Source of the DNA: an uncultured Gammaproteobacteria bacterium
Lineage (GTDB): Bacteria; Pseudomonadota; Gammaproteobacteria; PS1; Pseudothioglobaceae
DNA length: 64,000 nucleotides
Reading direction: 5' to 3'
Assembly: GCA_913020715.1 (NCBI GenBank)
Contig: CAJVZH010000007.1
Span: 13,021-77,020, forward strand
Shown: in pieces, positions 12,859-25,122 of the stretch
Layout of the letters: each line of letters opens with the position of its first letter
How positions within the stretch are numbered: the stretch's first letter is position 1
Translations under genes and position numbers: made by a program
The notes under the pieces: model-generated
Seen by the model: the letters and a program-made list of their open reading frames with translations, nothing else
Databases searched by the model: none
Told to the model about the DNA's origin: nothing

Positions 12859-13623
12859 CTAGTATTTACCACTCAATAACTCACCTGCTTCAGGAACATA
12901 AGTGCTCAAATTAAGTGATTTTAACATCTGCCAAGTAGTACAAATAGAGGAGCTAGTAACTGGTATTTGTAATATTTTTTCAACTTTGGCCACTGCGGCT
13001 AATGAAGGCATTTGCACACAAGCTGAGAGCACCAACACATCAATACCTTCCGTATCGACTTTTTTGAAGTGCTCAAGCAGGTTGTTTGGATCTTGCGCGG
13101 CAACCTCCAGATTATCTGGGATTTCAAGTGCAAGATAATCTTTTACTTTTATACCCTCTGATTCAATGTAGTCAACAACAAGTCTTGCCAAAGAGTCCAT
13201 ATAGGGACAAACAAAAGAAATGGTTTTGGCGCCCAGAGCGTGCAAGCCATCAATCAATGCGCCGGCACTGGTTACCACGGGCGCTGCCGCGTTATTTTCT
13301 TCAGTTATTTTTTGTAAGTTGAGCTGCGCATTTCGGTGGTAACCATTGCCCATTGACATAATGGCTACTAAGCAGGCATAGCCAAGAACGTCCATTCTGG
13401 CGTCAGACAGTTCGAGTGCGCAGCGGCCAGAATCAGCATCCATTGCTTGAAGCTCTTCTTTGGTTACATTTTTCATTCGCATACGACTTGAATGGAATGA
13501 AAAGCGCTCGGGTGAAATCCCTTCTCGGGCTCTAAGCATTGCTGGTATTTCGGTTTCCATTGTGACATTTGAGCTGGGCACAATTTGTCCAACTCTAATT
13601 AAGTTATTTTTCATTTTGCTCAT
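12859..13623 (-). CDS. maiA: Maleate cis-trans isomerase (Asp/Glu racemase fold)
   Basis: GQIVPSSNVTMETE, YACLVA and LSACVQMPS catalytic Cys pair, typical of MaiA/NicE. Confidence 0.85.
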   Translation of the reverse strand: MSKMKNNLIRVGQIVPSSNVTMETEIPAMLRAREGISPERFSFHSSRMRMKNVTKEELQAMDADSGRCALELSDARMDVLGYACLVAIMSMGNGYHRNAQLNLQKITEENNAAAPVVTSAGALIDGLHALGAKTISFVCPYMDSLARLVVDYIESEGIKVKDYLALEIPDNLEVAAQDPNNLLEHFKKVDTEGIDVLVLSACVQMPSLAAVAKVEKILQIPVTSSSICTTWQMLKSLNLSTYVPEAGELLSGKY

Positions 13624-14531
13624 CCTTTTATAACGGGGTTACGAATAGTGCCAATGCCCTCTATACCTGCCTCAATAATATCACCTGGCCACATCCATTC
13701 TTGTGGATCGCGCCCTGCGCCCACCCCTGATGGCGTTCCGGTGGCAATAATATCCCCTGGCTCTAAACGCATGCCGCTGCTAATATCTGCAATTAATTCA
13801 GGTATTTTAAAAAGCATAAATTTGGTATTAGAGTTTTGTTTCATCTCTCCGTTTTTCTTTAACCAAAGGTTAAGGTTGTGAGGATCTTTGACTTCATCAG
13901 CGGTGACGATGATCGGCCCCATTGGTGCGAAGCTATCCTGCCCTTTGGAAACAATCCATTGGCCCGCCCGCCTACAATCTCTTGCAGAAACATCGTTAAT
14001 AATTGTGTAACCAAAGACATGATTGAGTGCGTCTTCTTTAGGAATTGAGGATCCACCACTGCCGATAATGACTGCTAACTCAACCTCCCAATCGAGCTGT
14101 TGAGTAAGTGAGTTTCGATGCACAATCGGGCTATTCCAAGAAGTTACAGTTGTGGGTGGCTTTGTAAAAATAACCGGTTCTTGTGGAAGTTCTGCTGAGG
14201 TGTCGAGACTTCTGGCAGACTCAGCAACATGCTCAGTGTAGTTTAATCCAATGCCAAAAATATTCTTTTGCGGCCTGGGAATTGGCGCCAAAAAACGGGT
14301 ATCTGAAACCGCTGAAGTTGTACCTGCTGGCCAGTTGCCTTGATATTGCTTAATCAATTCCCCAAGTCGGGTTTTCGCCGAAATACCAGCATCGATAAAT
14401 GATTGCATGGTTGCCGGCAAATACTCGCCGGCTATTTCAGCCAAAAGATTAACATCGATAACTATATTGTCATCAATATATCCTAATCTGGCTTGTTCGT
14501 CTATTTTGATTCTGTATGTTGCGAGCTTCAT
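13620..14531 (-). CDS. Fumarylacetoacetate-hydrolase-family protein
   Basis: GIGLNYTEH, LDWEVEL, NDVSARD, SKGQDSF and PGDIIATGTPSGVG. Confidence 0.92.
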   Translation of the reverse strand: MKLATYRIKIDEQARLGYIDDNIVIDVNLLAEIAGEYLPATMQSFIDAGISAKTRLGELIKQYQGNWPAGTTSAVSDTRFLAPIPRPQKNIFGIGLNYTEHVAESARSLDTSAELPQEPVIFTKPPTTVTSWNSPIVHRNSLTQQLDWEVELAVIIGSGGSSIPKEDALNHVFGYTIINDVSARDCRRAGQWIVSKGQDSFAPMGPIIVTADEVKDPHNLNLWLKKNGEMKQNSNTKFMLFKIPELIADISSGMRLEPGDIIATGTPSGVGAGRDPQEWMWPGDIIEAGIEGIGTIRNPVIKG

Positions 14532-14555: not shown

Positions 14556-15674
14556 TTAAATAACCTGTTGGTGTCCATTATTTTGTTGATAAGGTTCTTC
14601 GAGATAAAATCCAAGTTTATCCATCACGGGAAAATCATTAAAAGAAAATAAACAGGCGTCATCAGAAGATGAGCTGTTTTTGTGCTCGTGCCAATGCCAA
14701 GAAGGCACACAGAATATGTCTTTTTCTTTCCAGTGAAACTCCTTGCCGTTGATAATCGATGTGCCAGAACCTTTAGCCACATTGTAGATAACATTACCTG
14801 TATGTCGGTGCGCTTTAGTGTGTTCTGCGGGACGCAGCATTTGCATGGAGGCGCTCATGGTTTGCATAATATAGCCTCCGTCCTTGGGGTTACTGTATCG
14901 CATTATAATGCCGTCAAAAGGGCATCCATCAGAGGCCTTAGCGTAATTTTGAAGTCCTTCATATGTTTCATCCCAACCAAACCGCATCAGAGGTGAGTAG
15001 GGTTTAGCCCATTTGTCATTAGCCGGGATTAAACCAGGAGAGCCGTAAATTAATGGAGAGTCATTAGTGGTGTATTTTGGCGTTTGAAAAATATCTTTAT
15101 GCACTGCGTAGTAATTAGCCTCCAATGCATTGGTAAGTGGGATGTCTAAGCCATCCTGCCAAATGGACGTTTTTCCTTCGTCATTTACACCGTGATCATG
15201 CCATGTGCCATTGGGTGTAATCACAAAATCGCGTGCACCAAACTCAATCTTATGGCCGTCAACTACTGTATATGCGCCAGCGCCTTCCATAATAAATCTC
15301 AGAGCGGAAGCGGCGTGTTTGTGCGCTGAGGTTTTTTCTCCGGGTTTCATAATTTGAATGCCACTAAACAGCCAACCACAAGCGGCACTCACCTCAGTGC
15401 GTTTTGGATTTTTTAGGTAGACCACCCTCCTGCCTGCTTTTTCGGGTGAAACCAGCTCAGAAGCCTTAACGACATAGGGACGAATGTCTTCAAATTTCCA
15501 TAAAACAGGTATAGAGTGTGCTGTGGGCTCCCAGGGCTCGATGTCATTGGCAACAGTCCATAGTGCACCGGTGTTGAATTGATTCAACTCTTTATAGTAA
15601 GATTTAAGTTGATCATCATCAGTGACAATGGCGCGGCCAATTTGGTTGTCTCTACCATCCGTTCTATTGCTCAT
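14556..15674 (-). CDS. Bicupin ring-cleavage dioxygenase, gentisate 1,2-dioxygenase family
   Basis: SGIQIMKPGE-x3-AHKH-x3-ALRFIMEG and TPNGTWHDH (HxH...H Fe ligands); second cupin AHRH...WHWHEH. Confidence 0.88.
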   Translation of the reverse strand: MSNRTDGRDNQIGRAIVTDDDQLKSYYKELNQFNTGALWTVANDIEPWEPTAHSIPVLWKFEDIRPYVVKASELVSPEKAGRRVVYLKNPKRTEVSAACGWLFSGIQIMKPGEKTSAHKHAASALRFIMEGAGAYTVVDGHKIEFGARDFVITPNGTWHDHGVNDEGKTSIWQDGLDIPLTNALEANYYAVHKDIFQTPKYTTNDSPLIYGSPGLIPANDKWAKPYSPLMRFGWDETYEGLQNYAKASDGCPFDGIIMRYSNPKDGGYIMQTMSASMQMLRPAEHTKAHRHTGNVIYNVAKGSGTSIINGKEFHWKEKDIFCVPSWHWHEHKNSSSSDDACLFSFNDFPVMDKLGFYLEEPYQQNNGHQQVI

Positions 15675-15710: not shown

Positions 15711-17324
15711 TTATTTTTTTAGCGAAAATCGTTGGATTTTCCCTGTCGCCGTTTTAGGAATGGATTCACAAAACACTATGGATCGAGGGTACTTGTAAGG
15801 CGCAATCAACTCTTTAACATGATTTTGCAGAATCTCAATAGTTTTGTTATTTTTCGCTTGATCCGATACAAGCACAATATGCGCTTGGACAATGCTACCT
15901 CGATCTTCATCATCGACACCAATAACAGCGCATTCATCTACGAACGGATGTTGCAGAAGTGCCGCCTCAACATCGGGAGCAGCAATGTTGTACCCCGATG
16001 AAATAATCATGTCATCATTGCGTGCAACAAAATGAAATGCGCCTGATTTGTCCATGGTAAAGCAATCGCCAGTCATATTCCAGCCATTTTTTACATAAGT
16101 TGTTTGGCGCTTATCTGCCAAATATCTACAACCCGTTGGACCCTTAATCGCAAGTTTTCCAATTGTGTTCGGAGGCGCTTCATTTCCGTCTTCATCAAGA
16201 ATAATTGCTTTATAGCCTGCGACTGGTTTTCCAGTACAAGAGGCTTGGTGATTGTCGGTTCGATTTGAAATAAAAATATGGAGCAATTCAGTTGCTCCAA
16301 TGCCATCAACCAGTGGTTTGCCAGTGGTATCAATCCAATCCTGATAAATGGAGGCGGGCAAAGTTTCGCCAGCAGAAACGGCTACACGCAACGTGGATAG
16401 GTCAGCACCTTCTTTTATTGCTGATAACATCACTTTATAGGCAGTAGGAGCAGTAAAACAAATGGTGGCTTTATATTTCTCAATCATGTCTATCAGCCCC
16501 TCAGGGGATGCTTGTTCGATTAGTGTTGCAGTCGCGCCAAAACGCAGTGGAAAGACCGCCAGACCCCCTAAACCAAAAGTGAAGGCAAGTGGTGGTGAAC
16601 CAATAAAAACATCTTTAGGGGTAACTTGTAGCACTTCTTTAGCATAAGTGTCGGCGATAGTCAGTAGGTCGCGATGAAAATGCATTGTTGCCTTGGGTTC
16701 ACCAGTAGTGCCTGAAGTAAAGCCTAAAAGGGCAACATCGTCACTACTAGTTTGGACAGCATTAAAATTAACGGACTTCTCCAACGCTAACTCGTCCAGC
16801 TCGGCCTCGTGGTTTGAAGTGCCATCAAAGCCCACTATTTGTTTAAGAAACGGGCTGTCGTTCGCACAATCATTTAATTCGTCCAACAGTCGGGTATCGC
16901 AAAGGGCAAAGTGAATTTGTGCCTTGTTTACAATTTTGCTTAATTCTCCAGATCGGAGCATGGGCATTGTATTAACAACAACCGCACCGACTTTTGTCGC
17001 TGCTAACCAGCAAGCGACCATTGCGGGGTTATTTGCGGATCGAATTAATACACGATTCCCCGACTCAATCTTATACTCCTCCAACAGAACGTTTGCTAGT
17101 CGATTGCTCCAGTCTGTCAACTCCTTATAAGTTCTTCTTCGGCCATTTCCTATTAAGGCAGTGTGGTCTCCAAAGCCGCTCTCAACCATCGTATCGGTTA
17201 GTTCATGGGCAATATTTAGTTGATCAGGGTAGTTGAAATTTTCTAATAATAGCTCTGGCCATTCAGAGGCTGGCGGTAAATTATCCCTCGAAAAAGTGTC
17301 GGTGTGTTGCGTCGGATTTAGCAT
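15711..17324 (-). CDS. Anthranilate (2-aminobenzoate)-CoA ligase, benzoate-CoA ligase family
   Basis: FTSGTTGEPK, SPPLAFTFGLGG, DGIGATELLHIF and TATGKIQRF. N-terminus (HTDTFSRDNLPP...YPDQLN) resembles AbmG-type ligases. Confidence 0.85.
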   Translation of the reverse strand: MLNPTQHTDTFSRDNLPPASEWPELLLENFNYPDQLNIAHELTDTMVESGFGDHTALIGNGRRRTYKELTDWSNRLANVLLEEYKIESGNRVLIRSANNPAMVACWLAATKVGAVVVNTMPMLRSGELSKIVNKAQIHFALCDTRLLDELNDCANDSPFLKQIVGFDGTSNHEAELDELALEKSVNFNAVQTSSDDVALLGFTSGTTGEPKATMHFHRDLLTIADTYAKEVLQVTPKDVFIGSPPLAFTFGLGGLAVFPLRFGATATLIEQASPEGLIDMIEKYKATICFTAPTAYKVMLSAIKEGADLSTLRVAVSAGETLPASIYQDWIDTTGKPLVDGIGATELLHIFISNRTDNHQASCTGKPVAGYKAIILDEDGNEAPPNTIGKLAIKGPTGCRYLADKRQTTYVKNGWNMTGDCFTMDKSGAFHFVARNDDMIISSGYNIAAPDVEAALLQHPFVDECAVIGVDDEDRGSIVQAHIVLVSDQAKNNKTIEILQNHVKELIAPYKYPRSIVFCESIPKTATGKIQRFSLKK

Positions 17325-17325
17325 C

Positions 17326-17805
17326 TTACTCTCCTTTCACCACTTTTAATTTTTCTTGTTTATCTGATTTGTTTTTCAGCAGTTGTTGAGAAATTCCCTC
17401 TAAAGACTCACTTAAGTAAATCGTCTCATTCTCGGGCAAGTGCTCTAGTAACTCGTTAATCCATTCTTTGTGAGCATTTGCTTGACGAGAAAATTCAAGT
17501 CGTCCTTTTTCGCTCAGGGCAACTTTAAGAATTCGTCGATCACCTATAACCGAACTTCTATCAACTAAGCCTTCAGAGCATAGGCGGTCTACAATGCCGG
17601 TTACATTGCCATTTGAAACTCTCAGTGCTCCAGAAAGTTGACTCATTTTTAAGCCCTCTGGATTTTGACTAAGTGCGGCCATCACATCAAAGCGAGGCAG
17701 GGTTGTGTTAAAGTTTGTGGCAAAGCGCTCTCGCATCTCGGCCTCAATTAAACGGGATGTTTTTAGTAAACGCAACCACAGACGTATAGGGTTTTTTTTA
17801 TCCAT
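17326..17805 (-). CDS. MarR-family transcriptional regulator of the abm-type locus
   Basis: IRLWLRLLK, TLPRFDVMAAL, VSNGNVTGIVDRL and DRR wing. Confidence 0.92.
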   Translation of the reverse strand: MDKKNPIRLWLRLLKTSRLIEAEMRERFATNFNTTLPRFDVMAALSQNPEGLKMSQLSGALRVSNGNVTGIVDRLCSEGLVDRSSVIGDRRILKVALSEKGRLEFSRQANAHKEWINELLEHLPENETIYLSESLEGISQQLLKNKSDKQEKLKVVKGE

Positions 17806-17847: not shown

Positions 17848-20145
17848 TTAGGCCCTTAAAATCACATCCGTTTCTTTTTTAGATACGGCTCGAGCTTGTT
17901 TACTGCCTTCGAGATAGGGCAATGGCGCTTGTAGGCAGGCGTCTCCAATAGAAATTCCTTCATTAATAACCCAATAAGGATTAAGTAGTTGTGCCCTTCC
18001 AATACAAACCAGGTCCGCTCTACCTGCTAAAAGAATAGAGTTTGCATGATCAGCTTTATAAATGTTGCCTACAGCCATTGTCGGCACATGAGCCTCGTTT
18101 CTGATCATGTCTGAGAATGGAGTCTGATACATTCGACCATAAACGGGTTTACATTCATTGGAAGTTTCGCCAGATGAAACATTAATAATATCGGCGCCTG
18201 CTTTTTTGAACATTTTAGCCACTTGAAGTCCGTCTTTTGGTAAGAGGCCGGCTTCGCCCAGCCAATCATGAGCAGAGATTCGGACCGATATCGGCATGTT
18301 TTTGGTTAGAGCATTGCGTATTGCCTGAAAAACTGCCAAGGGGTAGCGCATACGATTTTCAAGACTTGCGCCATAGCGGTCTTTCCTTTGGTTGGAAATC
18401 GGGGAAATAAAAGAAGAAAGCAAATAACCATGGCCAGCTTGAAGTTCAATCATATCAAAACCAGCCGATTCTGCCATCAGCGCAGCCTTAACAAACCCCT
18501 GGCAGACTTCATCCATCTCACTCTCGCTAATTTCTTGCGGTATTGCGTTGTCACTCGACCAAGTAATTGCTGATGCTGACACCAAAGGCCAATTGCCGGA
18601 TTCTAACGGTAAGTTTGAATTTTCCCAACCAACTTGACTTGATCCGCGTCGACCAGCATGGCCTATTTGACAGCAAACTTTTGCATAAGTTTGTTGGTGT
18701 ATAAAATCCACTATCCTGCCCCATTCTTTTTCGTGATTTGGCTGATAAAGTCCGGCACAGTTTGGGGTAATACGGCCAGATTCACAAACAGCGACCATCT
18801 CAGTGCATATCAAGCCAGCACCGCCTTTGGCTCGTTCAGTATAATGAGTAAAATGCCAATCATTAACACAGCCGTTTTGGGCTTTAAAGGTAGCTATAGC
18901 AGGGAATACAATACGGTTTATTAAGGTTAAGTTGCCCAAAGTAAAGGGCGTAAACATAGGGGATCGAGTTGGTTGATTTGAGTCGACAGCCGATTGTTTT
19001 TGAAACCAGTTTTCAGCACTATTTAGCCAAAGTGGGTCGCGTAAACGCAGGTTTTCATGACTAATGCGTTGCGACCTAGTAAGTAGCGAATAACTAAATT
19101 GAATTGGCTCAAAATCAATATAGCGCTCTATATTTTCAAACCATTCAAGACTGTTTCTTGCTGCCGATTGCAATCTTAGCACCTCCACCCTTCTTTCTTC
19201 TTGGTAGCGTTTAAATGCGAGCCCCATTGAGGGTTCTGAATGTAGGTAGTCTGCCAGCGCGATAGCGCTATCAAATGCTAGGCGAGTGCCGGACCCTATG
19301 GAGAAGTGAGCAGTTGCTGCGGAGTCTCCAATAAGAACAACATTTTTGTAATACCATTTTTCACATACAATTCTTGGGAAGTTCATCCATACAGCCGAGC
19401 CCCTCAAGTGTTCTGCGTTTGACTCAAGCGCATGGCTGCCCAGGTGTTTTTTGAAGATTTCTTCACAGACCTTAACTGATTCTTCTTTTGACATGCTTTC
19501 AAAACCAGTAGCCTCCCATGTCTCCTGAGAGCACTCAACAATAAAAGTAGCGGTATTGTTGTCGAACTGATAAACATGGCCCCAAAACCATCCATGTTCA
19601 GTTTGCTCAAAAATAAAAGTAAAGGCGCCGTCAAATTCTTGCTTTGTGCCCAGCCAAATAAATTTGCAAAGCCTAGTGTCAATATTTGGCTTAAATCTGT
19701 CGTTGTATTCACCCCTTGGTTGTGAGTTGATGCCATCAGTAGCAACAACCAGATCGTATTGGTGACGGTAATCTTCAGCCGAGGCGAAGGTTTTCTCAAA
19801 TTGAAGGACAACGCCAAGCTCTCGTGCACGTTGTTGGAGTATTATTAGCAATTTTTTTCTCCCAATCCCCGCAAAACCGTGGCCACTTGAAACGATTCTA
19901 TTGCCTTTAATGGTCACGGCAAGATCGTCCCAATAAGAGAAGTTATCTCGAATTTGGTTTGCGCTTATTGAATCATTTTTTTGAAGATTTTCTAAGGCGT
20001 CATCCGAAAGTACGACGCCCCAGCCAAAAGTGTCATTTGCCTTGTTTCTTTCTATGACAGTTACCTCGTGCAAGGGATTTCTGAGCTTCATAGAAATGGC
20101 AAAATAGAGACCAGCAGGGCCGCCTCCAAGACACACAATACGCAT
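17848..20145 (-). CDS. abmA: Bifunctional anthraniloyl/salicylyl-CoA 5-monooxygenase with OYE-like oxidoreductase domain (AbmA/SdgC family)
   Basis: N-terminal GGGPAGLY, TFGWGVV, GDSAATAHFSIGSGT and YSLLTRSQRISHENLRLRD; C-terminal old-yellow-enzyme TIM barrel (GHGYLLSSFISP, SLENRMR). Confidence 0.88.
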   Translation of the reverse strand: MRIVCLGGGPAGLYFAISMKLRNPLHEVTVIERNKANDTFGWGVVLSDDALENLQKNDSISANQIRDNFSYWDDLAVTIKGNRIVSSGHGFAGIGRKKLLIILQQRARELGVVLQFEKTFASAEDYRHQYDLVVATDGINSQPRGEYNDRFKPNIDTRLCKFIWLGTKQEFDGAFTFIFEQTEHGWFWGHVYQFDNNTATFIVECSQETWEATGFESMSKEESVKVCEEIFKKHLGSHALESNAEHLRGSAVWMNFPRIVCEKWYYKNVVLIGDSAATAHFSIGSGTRLAFDSAIALADYLHSEPSMGLAFKRYQEERRVEVLRLQSAARNSLEWFENIERYIDFEPIQFSYSLLTRSQRISHENLRLRDPLWLNSAENWFQKQSAVDSNQPTRSPMFTPFTLGNLTLINRIVFPAIATFKAQNGCVNDWHFTHYTERAKGGAGLICTEMVAVCESGRITPNCAGLYQPNHEKEWGRIVDFIHQQTYAKVCCQIGHAGRRGSSQVGWENSNLPLESGNWPLVSASAITWSSDNAIPQEISESEMDEVCQGFVKAALMAESAGFDMIELQAGHGYLLSSFISPISNQRKDRYGASLENRMRYPLAVFQAIRNALTKNMPISVRISAHDWLGEAGLLPKDGLQVAKMFKKAGADIINVSSGETSNECKPVYGRMYQTPFSDMIRNEAHVPTMAVGNIYKADHANSILLAGRADLVCIGRAQLLNPYWVINEGISIGDACLQAPLPYLEGSKQARAVSKKETDVILRA

Positions 20146-20199
20146 AATTTCACACTATTTTTTAAATTCTAATAAAACAATTATACATAAATGACAAAT

Positions 20200-20219
20200 A
20201 TATTTTAAGTATAAAATAT
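20200..20219. promoter_or_regulatory. Palindromic operator candidate ATATTTTA-AGTA-TAAAATAT in the divergent promoter region
   Basis: Perfect 8-bp inverted repeat with a 4-nt spacer between abmA and the thioesterase; the same motif recurs at 34138-34157. Confidence 0.6.
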
Positions 20220-20318
20220 TAATTATAAAGGCCGGATCAACATGTGTATAATCCATTATAAGTTGCACATTGTTGGCTTAAGATAGGCACTTATTTATAT
20301 TTTTGGAATTAAGTTATT

Positions 20319-20726
20319 GTGGCATTCTCTGTTAATCAAAAAGTCCTTTTTAGGCACTGCGATCCTGCAGGAATCGTCTTTTATCCCAGGTATTATGAGA
20401 TGATGAACGATTGTGTGGAGGAGTTTTTTGATAAAACGCTTGGCTTTCCATTTAATGAACTACACGAGATTGGTGGTGTTCCGACGGCCAAGATCGAAAC
20501 CAAGTTTACCGCGCCGAGTCGGCAAGGCGATATATTGGAAATAGTGCTAAGATGCCTTAGGCTTGGGAATAGCAGCTTGAGCATACGAATAACTGCACGT
20601 TGCGGGGAAGAATTGCGATTTCAATCTGACTCAACGTTGGTGTTTATTGATAGAAGTGGCAAGCCTCAATCTTGGCATGCAAAAGTGGCACAGCTATTGG
20701 CGAAGTGTGTAAAGGAAGATTGTTAG
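20319..20726 (+). CDS. 4-hydroxybenzoyl-CoA-type (hotdog-fold) thioesterase
   Basis: FRHCDPAGIVFYPRYYEM with catalytic Asp; FTAPSRQGD. Confidence 0.9.
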   Translation: MAFSVNQKVLFRHCDPAGIVFYPRYYEMMNDCVEEFFDKTLGFPFNELHEIGGVPTAKIETKFTAPSRQGDILEIVLRCLRLGNSSLSIRITARCGEELRFQSDSTLVFIDRSGKPQSWHAKVAQLLAKCVKEDC

Positions 20727-20806
20727 GGTCTTTTGTTGAGCATCTACGCAAAAGTTAAGCGCGTGATTATTGCGCATTTTTTCATACTTTATTAAGGAGT
20801 TTGGAC

Positions 20807-21085
20807 ATGGTTTCTTCGATTGTGCTAATGAAAATTGAGAAAAACAAGGTGGGTGAGGTTGCTGAAAAGTTAACTGATATTCAGGGGGTCAGTGAAGTGT
20901 TTTCGGTCGCTGGGCGTTGCGATTTGGTGTGCATGGTTCGAGTGGCTGATAATGAGCAATTAGCTGAAGCTGTTACTGAAAGAGTTCTGAAGGTTGAAGG
21001 GGTGCTTGAAACAGAAACTATGATTGCGTTTCGTGTTTTTTCTAAGCACGATTTAGAGGGTATGTTTTCGGTAGGCCTTAACTAG
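20807..21085 (+). CDS. Stand-alone Lrp/AsnC ligand-binding-domain protein (no HTH)
   Basis: 92 aa after SD AAGGAG; EVFSVAGRCDLVCMVRV...VLKVEGVLETETMIAF matches the Lrp C-terminal RAM domain. Confidence 0.8.
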   Translation: MVSSIVLMKIEKNKVGEVAEKLTDIQGVSEVFSVAGRCDLVCMVRVADNEQLAEAVTERVLKVEGVLETETMIAFRVFSKHDLEGMFSVGLN

Positions 21086-21111: not shown

Positions 21112-22134
21112 ATGGATATTAATCTTCCTATCTTTAAGGCAGCGGCCGTTCAAGATTCTCCTGTATTTTTGAATGTTGATGCCACGATCGACAAAGTGTG
21201 TGCAATTATTGCAAAAGCAAGCGCTAACGGCGCCGACTTAGTGGCTTTTCCAGAAGTTTTTGTTTCGGGATACCCTTATTGGAATTGGATTATGAGCCCT
21301 ATTGATGGAGGCAAATGGTACGAAAAACTTTACCGTAATTCCATTGACGTACCCGGCCCCGCTGTAGAAAGAATATATCAAGCAGCCAAAGAGCATAATG
21401 TTGTTGTAGTTATCGGTGTTAACGAACGAGGCTCTCGTAGTTTGGGTGTTATTTACAATACAGTCTTGGTGATAAGTGAGCAAGGCGAACTTATTGGCAA
21501 GCATAGAAAATTAGTGCCCACTTGGGCTGAAAAGCTCACTTGGACAGGTGGAGATGGCTCCTCCTTAAATGTACATGATACAAAGGTAGGTCCTTTGGGC
21601 GTATTGGCTTGTGGTGAAAATACAAATACATTGGCTCGTTTTGCTCTCTTGGCGCAAGGTGAGTTGGTGCATGTTTCAAATTATATTGCCTTGCCGACTG
21701 CACCAAAAGACTACGATATGGCTAGAGCAATTGAAATTAGGACGGCCGCACATGCTTTTGAAGGGAAGGTTTTCAATATTACATCCTGTTCCACTATTTC
21801 TGAATACATGATCGAGCAGATGGAGCAAGATTGCCCAAATGCCCGCCAACTATTAACTCGAAGTCGAGGCTCTTGGACTGGCGTTATTGGGCCAGACGGT
21901 CAAGTCATTGGCGAGCCGCTGATTGACAAAGAGGGCATTGTTTACGCGGACATTAATCTTTCAAAATGCATACAACCTAAACAAATGCATGACATTGTTG
22001 GGCATTATAATCGTTTTGATATATTCGACTTTAAAGTTAATAAGTCCCCCCAGGAGGCGGTCTCTTTCACAACAAAAAACATCAGTGAAAAAAGTGGTGA
22101 AAACGAAGATACTGAAGATGATAGTAGCCTCTAA
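21112..22134 (+). CDS. Nitrilase / carbon-nitrogen hydrolase family protein
   Basis: Catalytic triad FPE, HRKLVPTWAEK and LACGENTN. Confidence 0.92.
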   Translation: MDINLPIFKAAAVQDSPVFLNVDATIDKVCAIIAKASANGADLVAFPEVFVSGYPYWNWIMSPIDGGKWYEKLYRNSIDVPGPAVERIYQAAKEHNVVVVIGVNERGSRSLGVIYNTVLVISEQGELIGKHRKLVPTWAEKLTWTGGDGSSLNVHDTKVGPLGVLACGENTNTLARFALLAQGELVHVSNYIALPTAPKDYDMARAIEIRTAAHAFEGKVFNITSCSTISEYMIEQMEQDCPNARQLLTRSRGSWTGVIGPDGQVIGEPLIDKEGIVYADINLSKCIQPKQMHDIVGHYNRFDIFDFKVNKSPQEAVSFTTKNISEKSGENEDTEDDSSL

Positions 22135-22167: not shown

Positions 22168-23364
22168 ATGTCTGCCGAATACATTTGCAAAAAAAACCAT
22201 TTTTATCTACCAGATGACTTGATTTATCTCGATGGAAATTCACTTGGCCCGATGCCTCTTAAGGCTTTGGAGTACATGCCAAGTGTAATGCAAAATCAGT
22301 GGGGCGAAAAGCTTATTGGCGGCTGGAATGATGCCGGCTGGTATGACCAGCCCATAAGGGTTGGAGATCGCATCGCTCGGTTAGTTGGCGCGGACACAGG
22401 CTACATTGTAACGGGTGAAACGCTTTCGATAAAGGTCTACCAAGCGCTGGCTGCAGCCTTAGATATTAATAGTGACAGGCGAGTTATTCTATCTGATAAC
22501 GGCAACTTCCCTACTGATTTATATATTGCTGAAGGACTTATTAAAACCCTTGATAAGGGCCATCAGCTCGCATGCCCTAATCCTGAAGAGGTTGAGGATA
22601 GTATTGATGACTCGGTTGCAGTATTGATGCTTACTGAAGTCGATTATAAAACCTCCAGAAGGCATGACATGAAGCGCTTGACTGAAAAAGCTAGAGAGCA
22701 TGGGGTGATAACAATTTGGGACCTGGCCCACTCAGCAGGAGCTATACCGATTGATTTACAAGGTTGTGACATTGATTTTGCTATAGGTTGTACCTATAAG
22801 TACCTAAATGGTGGCCCCGGTTCTCCCGCTTTTATATATGTTGCGAAGCGGCATTCCAATATAGCCACGCCTGCGCTTTCGGGGTGGATGGGCCATCAAG
22901 CGCCTTTTTCCTTTGAACAAAGCTATCGGGCGCATGAGGGAACAAGTCGCATGCGTGTGGGCACTCCGCCTGTGCTTGCTCTATCCGTGCTTGAAGCCGC
23001 TTTAGATGTGTTTGATGGTGTTGATATGCACACCCTCTATCAGCGATCAAGAGTACTGTCGGAATTGTTTATCAAGGAGGTTATGGGCTCCTGCCCAAGT
23101 CTAATCTTAGCCAGTCCAGAAAAATCTGAATTGCGGGGCTCTCATGTTTCGTTCTATTTCGAGCATGCATTTTCTGCCATTCAAGCTTTGATTGATTTGG
23201 GCGTGGTAGGTGACTTTAGGGCTCCAAATGTGATGAGGTTTGGCATAACGCCTCTATATTTAGAAGAGGCAGACATCTCCCTTGCTGCGCAAAAAATTGC
23301 AAGTGTTGTTAATCAGGGTTTATGGAAAAAACAAATTTATCAAAAAAAAGGGGCGGTAACGTGA
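22168..23364 (+). CDS. kynU: Kynureninase
   Basis: [30 protein letters not shown] (PLP Lys), LSGWMGH and GDFRAP. Confidence 0.95.
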
Positions 23365-24197
23365 GTGAGTACTACAATCCAAAGGCAGATGGCGCACAAA
23401 TGTCTTTTGACGGGCGAATGTCTTACGGTGATTATCTAAATCTTGAGTACATCTTAAATGCACAAAAACCGCTTTCTGGCGCGCATGACGAAATGTTGTT
23501 TATTATTCAGCATCAGACTTCAGAGCTATGGATGAAGCTATGTGTTCACGAGCTTCTTTCTGCTCGTTTAGCTCTGCAAAACGACAACTTGCCGGAATCA
23601 TTTAAAATGCTCACTCGTGTAGCTCGAATAATGGAGCAACTTAATAACGCCTGGGATGTGCTTCGAACAATGACACCAAGCGAGTACACACAGTTTAGAG
23701 ACGACTTGGGTCAAAGTTCAGGATTCCAATCGCACCAATATAGACAAATTGAATTTATCTTGGGAAATAGAAATCGGTCGCTATTAAAGCCGCATGAACA
23801 CCAACCGAGAATACATGAGTTGCTACTTGAGGAATTAGACACGCCCAGCTTGTATGATGAAGTGATATTCTTGCTTAGGCGTCAAGGCTTGGAGATTGAA
23901 GATTGCGCCCTAAAAAGAAATTCTGATCAGCCTTATGAAAGTAATGCAAGCGTATTAAATGCCTGGAGACAGGTATATTTAGACCCGGAAAAGTATTGGT
24001 CTTGTTATGAACTGGGTGAAAAATGTGTTGATGTAGAGGATTATTTTCGGCGATGGCGCTTTAATCATTTAACAACCGTTCAGCGTATTATAGGTTTTAA
24101 ACGTGGTACAGGGGGCACCAGTGGGGTGCACTATTTAAAACGCATGCTTGATGTTGAATTATTCCCAGAGCTTTGGGATGTAAGAACTGAGTTGTAG
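23361..24197 (+). CDS. kynA: Tryptophan 2,3-dioxygenase
   Basis: [31 protein letters not shown] and [17 protein letters not shown] start overlaps the kynU TGA. Confidence 0.96.
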
Positions 24198-24300: not shown

Positions 24301-25122
24301 TTACATGCGGCTAGCAAACAAAAGCTTGCACAGGGGGCTCTCAGCATTGCGAAGTCCATCAATCACATTAAAATGGTGTTTATTTTTATCGATATAAACC
24401 TTATGTGAGATGTCAAAACCTAGCCACATATCCTTAAGAAGTTGGCTTTGACGCAAAAACTCAGGGCGTTCATTTTCGCCCACCCAGCAAACATGCTCAA
24501 TTCCTTTTCGTGGGGATAGTAAAACAGGGCTATGGCTTTGAGCGGTTTCAAAATCAATATTTAATTCTTTGTTCATTTTAGTATGCATGAGGGGCCTAAG
24601 ATCGTAGACACCAGAAATTGACACACACCTCTTAATTTTTTGCTTTGTTGAGATGGATAGATGGGAGTCTGTGCATATTAATCGACTAACAAGAAAACCA
24701 CCCGCAGAGTGGCCAGCAAGATATATCGGCCCATCAATTTCACCAGCAACAACATCAAGAGCTATAGTCGTCTCATCTATTATTTGCGGAATATTTGTGC
24801 CGGGACACAGAGTGTAAGAAATGATAGCCACTGCATATCCACTCTCTAAGCCGCCTTTTGCAAGGTGAGACCAATAACTTTTATCAAAATCAAGCCAGTA
24901 ACCACCATGCACAAAAAACATCAACCCCTTTGGTTTGTCTTTAGGTAGAAAAAGATCGTATTTATTTCTTGTTTTATCGCCATACGGGACGTTAAGCATG
25001 GCTTTGTTGTTTATAGCAACCTCTTCTCTAAATGCCCTGGATTCGTTTTCCCAGCTAGTGATATAGTCGGTTGCCCCCTCTATATAGATAGCATTTGCGA
25101 ATTCATCATCCCAGTTTTTCAA
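24301..25122 (-). CDS. Alpha/beta-hydrolase, probable kynurenine formamidase (arylformamidase)
   Basis: FVHGGYW, GHSAGG nucleophile elbow, SGVYDL and KHHFNVI; adjacent to kynA/kynU. TTG start. Confidence 0.75.
   Translation of the reverse strand: MKNWDDEFANAIYIEGATDYITSWENESRAFREEVAINNKAMLNVPYGDKTRNKYDLFLPKDKPKGLMFFVHGGYWLDFDKSYWSHLAKGGLESGYAVAIISYTLCPGTNIPQIIDETTIALDVVAGEIDGPIYLAGHSAGGFLVSRLICTDSHLSISTKQKIKRCVSISGVYDLRPLMHTKMNKELNIDFETAQSHSPVLLSPRKGIEHVCWVGENERPEFLRQSQLLKDMWLGFDISHKVYIDKNKHHFNVIDGLRNAESPLCKLLFASRM

What the first reader, a model, noticed from the sequence alone, without database searches (positions are those of the whole stretch)
14556..15674. Gentisate-family bicupin as a possible 5-hydroxyanthranilate 1,2-dioxygenase
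Seen: both cupin halves keep HxH...H motifs (AHKH..WHDH; AHRH..WHEH). No maleylpyruvate isomerase (GST or mycothiol type) is nearby; maleate isomerase and a nitrilase-family enzyme are. Established: this family includes gentisate, salicylate and 5-aminosalicylate 1,2-dioxygenases. Inference: this member may cleave an ortho-amino, para-hydroxy ring to give an amide.
Basis: partly seen in the sequence, partly recalled or inferred. Interest (0 to 1): 0.6.

Follow-up and report, generated by a model that had tools for sequence, protein, structure and literature searches.

The report
Two-iron gentisate-type dioxygenase, anthranilate pathway
This gene encodes a ring-opening enzyme of a distinct, widespread branch of the gentisate dioxygenase family. 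Its conserved neighbours suggest it opens a tryptophan-derived ring (5-hydroxyanthranilate) with the nitrogen still attached, a reaction nobody has yet shown.

Summary

It is not a canonical gentisate dioxygenase. It scores 297 bits against a cut-off of 442 for TIGR02272, and is at most 39% identical to gtdA enzymes. It belongs to a separate clade whose crystallised member is GDOsp of Ruegeria pomeroyi (3BU7, 67% identity), named a gentisate dioxygenase from an in vitro assay.

- In five bacterial classes this clade sits beside a nitrilase-branch hydrolase, a 303-aa acylpyruvate hydrolase and a maleate isomerase. This includes GDOsp itself.
- The isomerase never occurs without the nitrilase (21/6/0/35 loci).
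- Here the module is joined to tryptophan 2,3-dioxygenase, kynureninase, an aryl-CoA ligase, an AbmA/SdgC-type 5-hydroxylase and a thioesterase.

My best reading (about 0.45) is tryptophan, then anthranilate, then 5-hydroxyanthranilate, then ring cleavage to an amide, then maleate, then fumarate. The main rival (about 0.27) removes the nitrogen first and cleaves true gentisate. Sequence cannot decide between them.

No paper I could search describes the pathway. This scan has noted the same module before, in Flavobacterium genomes.

The parts
14556..15674 (-). GDOsp-type bicupin ring-cleaving dioxygenase (372 aa). It has a His triad in both cupin halves. This is the finding itself.
13620..14531 (-). 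303-aa FAH-family acylpyruvate hydrolase. Its stop overlaps the start of the isomerase gene by 4 nt.
   Evidence: Pfam FAA_hydrolase 235 bits. Best NCBIfam match is 2,4-diketo-acid hydrolases. In the PDB, 8SKY scores 218 bits and maleylpyruvate hydrolase 6JVV 103 bits. It lies next to the dioxygenase in 45 of 59 long loci.
12859..13623 (-). Maleate cis-trans isomerase (Asp/Glu racemase fold)
   Evidence: 336 bits to 4FQ7, the Pseudomonas putida S16 maleate isomerase. Both cysteine motifs are aligned.
15711..17324 (-). Aryl-CoA ligase of the benzoate/2-aminobenzoate-CoA ligase type
   Evidence: AMP-binding domains. TIGR02262 benz_CoA_lig scores 358 bits against a cut-off of 375.
17326..17805 (-). 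MarR-family regulator
17848..20145 (-). 765-aa two-domain flavoprotein. It is a 2-aminobenzoyl-CoA / salicylyl-CoA 5-hydroxylase fused to an old-yellow-enzyme domain.
   Evidence: NF006101 scores 1148.6 bits, above its cut-off of 1078. The OYE domain reads IATF where 8PUN has MCQY, and ELQAGHGY where it has ELHGAHGY.
20146..20318 (.). Divergent promoter region with a perfect 8+8 palindrome at 20200-20219
   Evidence: RNA-library contigs of two studies begin at 20277, which is only a weak hint.
20319..20726 (+). 4HBT (hotdog) acyl-CoA thioesterase
   Evidence: A homologue is present in 22 of 59 long loci.
20801..21085 (+). 94-aa stand-alone Lrp/AsnC ligand-binding domain protein
   Evidence: It is conserved in the 83% relative.
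21112..22134 (+). Nitrilase-branch CN hydrolase (340 aa). It keeps the E-K-C triad but has a CGENTN nucleophile motif in place of CWE.
   Evidence: Orthologues of 58-68% identity lie next to the dioxygenase in 29 of 59 long loci.
22168..23364 (+). Kynureninase
   Evidence: TIGR01814 scores 254 bits, above its cut-off of 246.
23322..24197 (+). Tryptophan 2,3-dioxygenase. It overlaps the kynureninase gene by 43 nt.
   Evidence: TIGR03036 scores 420 bits, above its cut-off of 391.
24301..25122 (-). Alpha/beta hydrolase, the likely N-formylkynurenine formamidase
   Evidence: No cyclase-type KynB was found in the 94.7%-complete genome. The gene is conserved in the relative.

Best explanation
The gene encodes a non-haem Fe(II) bicupin dioxygenase of the GDOsp (3BU7) subfamily. 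I propose that its physiological substrate here is 5-hydroxyanthranilate (2-amino-5-hydroxybenzoate). The proposed route has these steps. (1) Tryptophan is converted to anthranilate by tryptophan 2,3-dioxygenase, an alpha/beta-hydrolase formamidase and kynureninase. (2) The ligase makes anthraniloyl-CoA. (3) The AbmA/SdgC-type flavoprotein hydroxylates C5. (4) The hotdog thioesterase releases 5-hydroxyanthranilate. (5) The bicupin binds it through the carboxylate and the C2 substituent at the N-terminal His118/His120/His159 iron and cleaves the C1-C2 bond. Because C2 carries NH2, the product is the primary amide maleamoylpyruvate rather than maleylpyruvate. (6) The 303-aa FAH enzyme releases pyruvate. 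(7) The nitrilase-branch hydrolase frees ammonia to give maleate. The order of steps 6 and 7 is open. (8) The isomerase makes fumarate. Shown: gene identities, family placement, conserved residues, conserved gene linkage, and presence of the cluster in marine RNA libraries. Inferred: the substrate, the amide product and the order of the steps.
For: (1) The protein is not a canonical GDO. TIGR02272 scores 297.5 against a cut-off of 442.1. Identity to gtdA enzymes is at most 39%, against at least 55% within the subfamily. A long, fully supported branch separates the two groups.
(2) Canonical gtdA genes sit with a short FAH, a GST maiA and 3-hydroxybenzoate 6-hydroxylase. One Pusillimonas locus holds both systems side by side, so they are not redundant.
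(3) The nitrilase orthologue lies next to the dioxygenase in 29 of 59 long loci. These come from Alpha-, Beta- and Gammaproteobacteria, Bacteroidota and Acidimicrobiales, include GDOsp itself, and show three different gene orders. A further subfamily gene met in a separate even sample of 200 other genomes of the phylum (L103; not among the 80 loci) also has a CN hydrolase just upstream, though the other one from that sample (L095) showed none within its 1.5-kb flanks.
(4) All 15 loci with the 5-hydroxylase also have a CN hydrolase. Four loci carry a second, paralogous nitrilase-branch lineage.
(5) The maleate isomerase occurs only together with the nitrilase. Counts are 21 with both, 6 with nitrilase only, 0 with isomerase only and 35 with neither. 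This is expected if the nitrilase makes the maleate.
(6) The thioesterase and nitrilase lie in one gene string with kynureninase and tryptophan dioxygenase. The same string is kept in an 83% relative. A Bradyrhizobiaceae MAG has TDO-nitrilase-dioxygenase-FAH.
(7) No beta-oxidation genes of the Azoarcus Abm route are present. The OYE domain has altered active-site residues.
(8) The subfamily has an invariant Glu46 where the salicylate dioxygenase has the active-site lid residue Met46 and canonical GDOs have Val or Ile. W101, G156, V163 and Q173 are also subfamily-specific.
(9) No paper I could search describes a 5-hydroxyanthranilate ring-cleaving enzyme or its product.
Against: The nearest characterised enzyme, GDOsp, was published as a gentisate 1,2-dioxygenase on an in vitro assay (title and citation seen; the paper is not held). 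Arg82, Gln107, Arg126, His161 and Asp174 match the gentisate-binding residues of the salicylate dioxygenase, so gentisate is a plausible substrate. No residue distinguishes nitrilase-linked from nitrilase-free members, and Glu46 is invariant in both. This suggests one common substrate across the clade, including loci with no nitrogen-removing gene nearby. Bradyrhizobium and Paracoccaceae variants carry RidA plus an acyl-CoA dehydrogenase, which would suit deamination and re-aromatisation to gentisyl-CoA before cleavage. Older physiology reports anthranilate going to 5-hydroxyanthranilate and then gentisate (Cain 1968, cited). The nitrilase belongs to the true nitrilase branch, not to a known amidase branch. 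I know of no precedent for a dioxygenase that forms a primary amide from an exocyclic aromatic amine. The test on phylogenetically independent pairs is underpowered.
Confidence: 0.45

Rival explanations
1. Nitrogen is removed first, and the enzyme is a true gentisate 1,2-dioxygenase of a glutathione-independent pathway. The amino group would be lost before ring cleavage, for example by the nitrilase-type enzyme acting on the vinylogous-amide C2 of an aminated CoA ester or of the de-aromatised hydroxylase product. Gentisate is then cleaved to maleylpyruvate, hydrolysed directly to maleate plus pyruvate, and isomerised to fumarate.
For: GDOsp (67% identity) was assayed as a GDO (citation seen). 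Gentisate-binding residues are kept. The pocket is identical in nitrilase-linked and nitrilase-free members. RidA plus acyl-CoA dehydrogenase variants exist. Anthranilate-to-gentisate routes are known physiologically, but the enzymes are unreported. Direct maleylpyruvate hydrolases of 303 aa exist (6JVV).
Against: Hydrolytic deamination of an electron-rich aromatic amine would be unprecedented for the nitrilase superfamily. This is my own chemical reasoning. If every member made maleate from maleylpyruvate, the isomerase should also accompany nitrilase-free loci, yet it is found in 0 of 35 of them. In most loci the nitrilase lies inside the lower module, and in Ralstonia between the FAH and isomerase genes, not with the hydroxylase.
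Confidence: 0.27
2. The cluster is a CoA-dependent salicylate-to-gentisate pathway (Sdg/Ceh type). The flavoprotein would be a salicylyl-CoA 5-hydroxylase, the bicupin a gentisate dioxygenase, and the nitrilase and kynurenine genes merely neighbours.
For: The NCBIfam name of the best-scoring model is salicylyl-CoA 5-hydroxylase/oxidoreductase. A Massilia sdgC homologue was reported as induced by salicylate. The ligase-hydroxylase-thioesterase-dioxygenase logic is the same.
Against: The nitrilase and thioesterase lie in one gene string with kynureninase and tryptophan dioxygenase, and this is conserved in a relative. The nitrilase is part of the module in five classes. The ligase is of the benzoate/2-aminobenzoate type.
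Confidence: 0.08
3. Ring cleavage gives a nitrile. The Fe-bound alpha-hydroperoxy-imine intermediate would fragment to cis-3-cyanoacryloylpyruvate plus water instead of an amide. The FAH enzyme would release cis-3-cyanoacrylate, and a real nitrilase reaction would then give maleate and ammonia.
For: Two different lineages of the true nitrilase branch were recruited to the module, one with CGENTN and one with CWENYM. Both match the Nit6803 nitrilase family. No amidase-branch enzyme is seen. A nitrile and an amide are at the same oxidation level, so the O2 stoichiometry is unchanged (my own reasoning).
Against: I know of no precedent. The Trp-to-Gly change next to the nucleophile could equally reflect a shift to amide hydrolysis. 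No data bear on the product.
Confidence: 0.1

Closest known systems
GDOsp, gentisate 1,2-dioxygenase of Silicibacter (Ruegeria) pomeroyi DSS-3 (PDB 3BU7; AAV97252)
   Same: Same subfamily: 597 bits by phmmer and 67% identity by tblastn. Same length, and the His triad is present in both cupin domains. The same lower module surrounds it: CN hydrolase, dioxygenase, 303-aa FAH and Asp/Glu-racemase-type isomerase.
   Different: The upstream genes differ. R. pomeroyi has an indolepyruvate-oxidoreductase-like IorAB pair, an aldehyde dehydrogenase and an aminotransferase. The window instead has the CoA ligase, the 5-hydroxylase and the kynurenine genes. GDOsp was assayed with gentisate. To my knowledge 5-hydroxyanthranilate was not tested.
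Canonical gentisate 1,2-dioxygenases (gtdA/NagI; TIGR02272; E. coli O157 2D40)
   Same: Bicupin fold, N-terminal 3-His iron site, and the Arg/Gln/Arg/His/Asp substrate-binding residues.
   Different: Identity is at most 39% and the score is below the family cut-off. The canonical enzymes lack the C-terminal His triad and have Val or Ile rather than Glu at position 46. Their partners are a short FAH, a GST isomerase and 3-hydroxybenzoate 6-hydroxylase.
Azoarcus evansii Abm pathway (2-aminobenzoate-CoA ligase plus 2-aminobenzoyl-CoA monooxygenase/reductase)
   Same: A ligase and a two-domain hydroxylase/OYE flavoprotein acting on anthranilate-derived CoA esters.
   Different: There are no beta-oxidation genes. 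A thioesterase and a ring-cleavage module follow instead, and the OYE site residues are changed.
CoA-dependent salicylate-to-gentisate pathways (Streptomyces sp. WA46 sdgABCD; Rhizobium sp. X9; Bacillus halodurans BH1999 gentisyl-CoA thioesterase). These are recalled from memory and were only named.
   Same: The same logic: activate as a CoA ester, hydroxylate at C5, hydrolyse the thioester, cleave with a GDO-family enzyme.
   Different: Those pathways have no nitrilase, no maleate isomerase and no kynurenine genes, and their substrate carries OH rather than NH2 at C2.
Nicotinate/nicotine lower pathway (NicF maleamate amidase, NicE/Iso maleate isomerase)
   Same: The proposed exit is the same: maleamate to maleate to fumarate. 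The isomerase scores 336 bits against the P. putida S16 enzyme.
   Different: The amidase slot is filled by a nitrilase-branch enzyme, not an isochorismatase-type NicF. The amide would arise from an exocyclic amine, not from a pyridine ring.

Membership tests
Gentisate 1,2-dioxygenase, canonical (NCBIfam TIGR02272 equivalog, EC 1.13.11.4) | Whole-protein score above the curated cut-off (442.1 bits) | tested here: not met
   297.5 bits
Gentisate 1,2-dioxygenase, canonical (NCBIfam TIGR02272 equivalog, EC 1.13.11.4) | Bicupin with an N-terminal 3-His Fe(II) site | tested here: met
   Two Cupin_2 domains. H118, H120 and H159 align with H119, H121 and H160 of the salicylate dioxygenase.
Gentisate 1,2-dioxygenase, canonical (NCBIfam TIGR02272 equivalog, EC 1.13.11.4) | Substrate-binding residues: Arg83, Gln108, Arg127 and His162 for the carboxylate and 2-OH; Asp174 and Tyr/Trp104 for the 5-OH (SDO numbering) | tested here: inconclusive
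   R82, Q107, R126, H161 and D174 are kept. Position 104 is Phe here, and Tyr in 47 of the 66 subfamily rows counted.
Gentisate 1,2-dioxygenase, canonical (NCBIfam TIGR02272 equivalog, EC 1.13.11.4) | Operon partners: a thiol-dependent maleylpyruvate isomerase and a short fumarylpyruvate hydrolase | tested here: not met
   None within the cluster. The canonical pattern is seen. The only maiA in the genome lies beside fahA.
Gentisate 1,2-dioxygenase, canonical (NCBIfam TIGR02272 equivalog, EC 1.13.11.4) | Catalytic activity on gentisate | not testable with these tools
   This is known only for the homologue GDOsp, from a paper I could not read.
GDOsp-type two-metal bicupin subfamily | Falls in the clade that holds 3BU7, apart from canonical GDOs | tested here: met
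   597 bits to 3BU7. Identity is 55-83% within the clade and at most 39% outside it. The split has SH-aLRT support of 100.
GDOsp-type two-metal bicupin subfamily | Second HxH...H metal site in the C-terminal cupin | tested here: met
   H289, H291, H329 and H331 are present. They are invariant in the subfamily and largely absent from canonical GDOs (1 of 13 has His at 329).
5-Aminosalicylate 1,2-dioxygenase MabB (NF049978) | Score above the cut-off (650 bits) | tested here: not met
   266.6 bits
Salicylate 1,2-dioxygenase (Pseudaminobacter salicylatoxidans, 2PHD) | Close sequence kinship | tested here: not met
   162 bits, more distant than the E. coli GDO at 231 bits
Azoarcus-type Abm anthranilate pathway | The ligase and monooxygenase/reductase are followed by beta-oxidation-type genes | tested here: not met
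   The ligase and flavoprotein are present. No enoyl-CoA hydratase, SDR or acyl-CoA dehydrogenase was found among the main ORFs scanned between 3440 and 34022; small and nested ORFs were not scanned.
Proposed 5-hydroxyanthranilate 1,2-dioxygenase (no described family) | O2-dependent cleavage of 2-amino-5-hydroxybenzoate to an amide | not testable with these tools
   The only support is context.

The most novel reading that the evidence does not exclude
The dioxygenase opens 5-hydroxyanthranilate between C1 and C2 by fragmentation of an alpha-hydroperoxy-imine. The ring carbon that bears the nitrogen would then leave as a nitrile (cis-3-cyanoacryloylpyruvate), not an amide. The conserved enzyme of the true nitrilase branch would then carry out a genuine nitrilase reaction on cis-3-cyanoacrylate to give maleate. 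This would be a nitrile-forming aromatic ring cleavage. It would also make the crystallised 'gentisate dioxygenase' GDOsp a misassigned enzyme.
Probability: 0.1. Interest if true: 0.9.

Novelty: new variant of a known kind. Interest (0 to 1): 0.62.

Why it matters
If the reading is right, three things follow.
- It adds a new ring-cleavage reaction: a C-C cut next to an exocyclic aromatic amine that gives a primary amide or a nitrile.
- It adds a fifth aerobic route for anthranilate. That would fill the long-open gap of how anthranilate enters a gentisate-like pathway, whose enzymes were stated as unreported in 2018.
- It would change the physiological assignment of a solved structure (3BU7).

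The clade is large. The genome scan stopped at its 600-match limit, and 589 of those matches were confirmed. The scan found the clade in Roseobacter-group bacteria, rhizobia, Ralstonia solanacearum, Achromobacter, Flavobacterium and, here, a streamlined 1.55-Mb marine genome. The closest named relative of this genome's UvrB is labelled Candidatus Thioglobus.

The cluster occurs almost unchanged in marine metagenomes of more than ten studies, and in contigs of four marine RNA libraries. It may therefore matter for how tryptophan-derived carbon and nitrogen are recycled in the ocean. The test is cheap, because 2-amino-5-hydroxybenzoate can be bought and GDOsp already expresses and crystallises.

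Tried and rejected
- The first genome scan with the single protein found nothing. The scan with alignment A1 worked.
- The GDOsp paper could not be read by DOI or PMC id, so I have no kinetic numbers. A paper that overlays 3BU7 actually used the Corynebacterium enzyme.
- Searches for 5-hydroxyanthraniloyl-CoA, maleamoylpyruvate, SPOA locus tags and Cupriavidus indole clusters gave nothing that bears on the enzyme. The Cupriavidus taiwanensis plasmid locus is cut by IS elements.
- I looked for residues that separate nitrilase-linked from nitrilase-free subfamily members and found none.
- The independent-pairs test of nitrilase against isomerase has only 5 supported pairs. It reaches p of about 0.25 and is underpowered, so I use only the raw counts, with that caveat.
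- Phe103 first looked like a subfamily hallmark at the 5-OH-binding position. Most members have Tyr there, so I dropped it.
- The nitrilase as kynurenine formamidase: rejected, because it travels with the dioxygenase in loci that have no kynurenine genes.
- Cleavage of the reduced, non-aromatic Abm product to succinylpyruvate: rejected, because a maleate isomerase would then be pointless.
- RNA-library contigs cover the cluster, but contigs cannot prove transcription, strand or level. I use them only as presence in RNA libraries.
- I did not fold the protein or run complex prediction. A 67%-identical crystal structure exists, and the tools give no coordinates or docking.
Full report
**The observation**

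window:14556-15674 on the minus strand is an intact 372-aa ORF with two Cupin_2 domains. In an alignment of 26 relatives, all eight histidines are invariant. The C-terminal histidines are kept in at least 95% of 85 subfamily members. In 13 canonical gentisate dioxygenases they are replaced: mostly Y at 289, S/T/A at 291 and V in 11 of 13 at 329. The motif is therefore a real, selected feature. The neighbourhood claim is also right. A maleate isomerase lies at 12859-13623 (336 bits to the Pseudomonas putida S16 enzyme 4FQ7). A nitrilase-branch CN hydrolase lies at 21112-22134. No GST-type or mycothiol-type isomerase is in the cluster. The only GST-zeta maiA of the genome is on another contig, beside a true fumarylacetoacetase, and so belongs to the homogentisate pathway.

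**What the protein is**

- It scores 297.5 bits on the gentisate 1,2-dioxygenase equivalog TIGR02272 (cut-off 442.1). It scores 266.6 on the 5-aminosalicylate dioxygenase model (cut-off 650).
- Against solved structures the best match by far is 3BU7, 'GDOsp' of Silicibacter pomeroyi (597 bits). The E. coli O157 GDO scores 231 bits and the salicylate dioxygenase 162.
- In annotated plasmids the relatives fall into two bands. One is 55-67% identical, named 'cupin domain-containing protein' by NCBI, and includes R. pomeroyi at 67%. The other is at most 39% identical and named gtdA.
- A maximum-likelihood tree of 87 sequences splits the two groups by a long branch with full support.
- The window's own genome has no other member of the family.

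So the protein does group with one characterised 'gentisate dioxygenase', but that enzyme is itself the odd one out. It is known for carrying iron in both cupin domains. I know this from the 2008 paper, whose title and citation I saw but whose text is not held.

**The surroundings in the window**

- Minus-strand operon: a 765-aa flavoprotein matching the salicylyl-CoA 5-hydroxylase / 2-aminobenzoyl-CoA monooxygenase-reductase model above its cut-off (1148.6 against 1078), then MarR, a benzoate-type aryl-CoA ligase, the bicupin, a 303-aa FAH-family hydrolase and the maleate isomerase. The last two genes overlap by 4 nt.
- Divergent plus-strand operon: a hotdog thioesterase, a 94-aa Lrp/AsnC ligand-binding domain protein, the nitrilase-branch hydrolase, kynureninase and tryptophan 2,3-dioxygenase. 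The last two are above their equivalog cut-offs and overlap by 43 nt.
- An alpha/beta hydrolase converges on the plus operon. No cyclase-type KynB was found in the 94.7%-complete genome, so this hydrolase is the likely formamidase.
- A 4-hydroxyphenylacetate cluster follows.
- No beta-oxidation genes of the Azoarcus Abm route are present.
- The OYE domain of the flavoprotein reads IATF where 8PUN has MCQY, and ELQAGHGY where it has ELHGAHGY. This would fit release of an aromatic product rather than a reduced one, but that is inference.

**Comparative genomics**

A scan of one genome per species stopped at its 600-match limit, and 589 of the matches were confirmed as relatives. I kept 80 loci.

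- Among the 59 loci of at least 15 kb, the 303-aa FAH is adjacent in 45. An orthologue of the window's nitrilase (58-68% identity) is present in 29, nearly always directly beside the dioxygenase. A thioesterase homologue is present in 22, the isomerase in 19 and the 5-hydroxylase in 12.
- Three layouts recur:
  - 5-hydroxylase, ligase, thioesterase, nitrilase, dioxygenase, FAH, isomerase. Seen in Flavobacterium, Cytophagaceae and Vibrio penaeicida; the window has the same gene set split over two operons.
  - MarR, thioesterase and IorBA on one strand; aldehyde dehydrogenase, aminotransferase, nitrilase, dioxygenase, FAH, isomerase and Tct transporter on the other. Seen in Rhodobacterales and Hoeflea.
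  - IorAB, thioesterase, 5-hydroxylase, dioxygenase, FAH, nitrilase, with or without the isomerase. Seen in Alcaligenaceae and Ralstonia solanacearum.
- The crystallised GDOsp itself lies in the second layout.
- On the tree, nitrilase adjacency is scattered over the whole subfamily, including the basal rows. Nitrilase-free groups are nested within it.
- All 15 loci with the 5-hydroxylase also have a CN hydrolase. In four loci this is a second, paralogous lineage that also belongs to the Nit6803 nitrilase family.
- The orthologues carry CGENTN at the nucleophile instead of the CWE of true nitrilases.
- The isomerase never appears without the nitrilase. Among 62 loci with enough flank, the counts are 21 with both, 6 with nitrilase only, 0 with isomerase only and 35 with neither. 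A test on phylogenetically independent pairs has only 5 supported pairs and is underpowered.
- Canonical gtdA genes sit with a short FAH, GST maiA and 3-hydroxybenzoate 6-hydroxylase. One Pusillimonas locus carries both systems within 21 kb.
- An 83%-identical relative from marine metagenomes keeps the window's whole two-operon layout, including nitrilase-kynureninase-TDO and the alpha/beta hydrolase. It adds a Liv-type ABC transporter.
- A Bradyrhizobiaceae MAG has TDO-nitrilase-dioxygenase-FAH.

**The active site**

Using the residue list given for the salicylate dioxygenase in PMC10306065 and the alignment:

- The window protein keeps the iron ligands H118, H120 and H159.
- It keeps the carboxylate and hydroxyl binders R82, Q107, R126 and H161, and the 5-OH binder D174.
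- The second 5-OH binder (Trp104 in the salicylate enzyme, Tyr in GDOs) is Phe here, but Tyr in most subfamily members.
- Subfamily-invariant residues that differ from all 13 canonical enzymes include Glu46, Trp101, Gly156, Val163 and Gln173. Glu46 stands where the salicylate enzyme has Met46, which that paper names as part of the active site contributed by the neighbouring subunit. Canonical GDOs have Val or Ile there.
- A buried carboxylate at that place could partner an amino group. However, it is equally invariant in members with no nitrilase nearby, and no column separates the two sets.

Sequence therefore shows a re-shaped pocket but does not name the substrate.

**Most likely mechanism**

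Tryptophan would be taken to anthranilate by the kynurenine enzymes, activated to the CoA ester, hydroxylated at C5 and released as 5-hydroxyanthranilate. The bicupin would cleave it between C1 and C2. With NH2 on C2, the product is maleamoylpyruvate. The FAH enzyme and the nitrilase-type hydrolase, in either order, would give pyruvate, ammonia and maleate, and the isomerase would give fumarate.

Three observations favour this over the alternatives:
- the nitrilase lies inside the lower module;
- the isomerase is coupled to the nitrilase, as expected if the nitrilase makes the maleate;
- ordinary C-N hydrolysis of an aliphatic amide fits the nitrilase superfamily far better than deamination of an electron-rich aromatic amine. 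This last point is my own chemical reasoning.

I put this reading at about 0.45.

**Rivals**

(a) Nitrogen removed first, true gentisate cleaved (about 0.27).
- For: the gentisate assay of GDOsp; the retained gentisate-binding residues; the identical pocket in nitrilase-free loci; variants with RidA directly upstream of the dioxygenase plus a cyclohexanecarboxyl-CoA-dehydrogenase-like enzyme; and old physiological reports of anthranilate going to 5-hydroxyanthranilate and then gentisate.
- Against: the chemistry it demands of a nitrilase, and the absence of the isomerase from all 35 nitrilase-free loci.

(b) A salicylate pathway of the Sdg type with unrelated neighbours (about 0.08). The conserved operon linkage to the kynurenine genes argues against it.

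(c) A nitrile-forming cleavage (about 0.10). It would explain why two lineages of the true nitrilase branch, rather than an amidase, were recruited. I know of no precedent for it.

**Literature and earlier notes**

Full-text searches found no paper on a 5-hydroxyanthranilate ring-cleaving dioxygenase, 5-hydroxyanthraniloyl-CoA thioesterase or maleamoylpyruvate. A 2018 review states that the enzymes of the anthranilate-to-gentisate route are unreported. In Arthrobacter sp. Rue61a, hydroxyanthraniloyl-CoA was detected in anthranilate-grown cells. Subscription journals are mostly outside the library, so prior description cannot be excluded.

Earlier notes of this scan describe the same four-gene module in Flavobacterium genomes and reach a similar reading. 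They are not independent evidence. Two notes on this window gave me leads that I checked. The CGENTN motif is confirmed. The altered OYE residues are partly confirmed.

**Host and ecology**

The genome is 1.55 Mb in 26 contigs and 94.7% complete. Its UvrB is 97% identical to one from a MAG labelled Candidatus Thioglobus. The cluster is held almost unchanged (91-94% of sampled words) in marine, seawater and sediment metagenomes of more than ten studies. Contigs of four marine RNA libraries, at least 95% identical and nearly all at least 99%, lie on the cluster; those of X14 and X15 have depth in every bin, those of X16 and X17 are patchy. This shows presence in RNA libraries, not proven transcription.

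**Verdict**

In kind, this is a new variant of a known enzyme family, in a pathway I could not find described.

Noticed in passing
window:17848-18990 (C-terminal OYE domain of the 765-aa flavoprotein): Against YqjM-type OYE structures, the conserved MCQY and ELHGAHGY motifs read IATF and ELQAGHGY. The reductase half may be re-tuned or disabled.
   Followed up: partly
window:21112-22134: The nitrilase-branch hydrolase and at least 24 of its dioxygenase-linked orthologues carry CGENTN at the catalytic cysteine instead of CWE; my pattern missed the motif in 8 others, which I did not re-check. A paralogous lineage in four loci keeps CWENYM.
   Followed up: yes
L034:8280-9943 and L078; L070: The Bradyrhizobium loci (L034, L078) have an acyl-CoA dehydrogenase (cyclohexanecarboxyl-CoA-dehydrogenase-like) and a RidA protein directly upstream of the dioxygenase, in place of the nitrilase. 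The Paracoccaceae locus L070 carries homologues of both 7.6-9.6 kb away and also a paralogous CN hydrolase next to the FAH gene. This may be an alternative way of removing the nitrogen.
   Followed up: partly
L069 (Pusillimonas sp. UBA3987): One 21-kb stretch carries two systems. One is a subfamily dioxygenase with FAH, nitrilase and maleate isomerase. The other is a canonical gtdA with short FAH, GST maiA and 3-hydroxybenzoate 6-hydroxylase.
   Followed up: no
L081 (R. pomeroyi megaplasmid), L082 (R. solanacearum), L033, L058: An indolepyruvate-oxidoreductase-like IorAB pair replaces or accompanies the CoA ligase in many loci. It could make the aryl-CoA ester from a 2-oxo acid such as isatinate, but this is untested.
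   Followed up: no
L115:9462-11408: In one metagenome contig of the 83% relative, kynureninase and tryptophan 2,3-dioxygenase are called as a single 648-aa product. In the window the two genes overlap by 43 nt.
   Followed up: no
window:20146-20318: A perfect 8+8 palindrome (ATATTTTA, 4 nt, TAAAATAT) lies at 20200-20219 in the divergent promoter. RNA-library contigs from two studies both begin at 20277, 42 nt before the thioesterase start.
   Followed up: partly
window:25441-34022: A complete 4-hydroxyphenylacetate / homoprotocatechuate cluster lies directly beside the tryptophan cluster in a 1.55-Mb genome. It comprises HpaB and its reductase, HpaR, HpaG-like, HpaE, a LigB-type dioxygenase, HpaF, HpaH and HpaI.
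   Followed up: no
window:11241-12662 and L033:~14595: A 473-aa FAD-linked oxidase lies just beyond the maleate isomerase in the window. It has a 46%-identical homologue in the same relative place in Glaciimonas soli.
   Followed up: no
L079: A contig filed under a Bifidobacterium breve MAG carries a Flavobacterium-type copy of the whole operon and nests among Flavobacterium sequences in the tree. This is probably a binning error.
   Followed up: no
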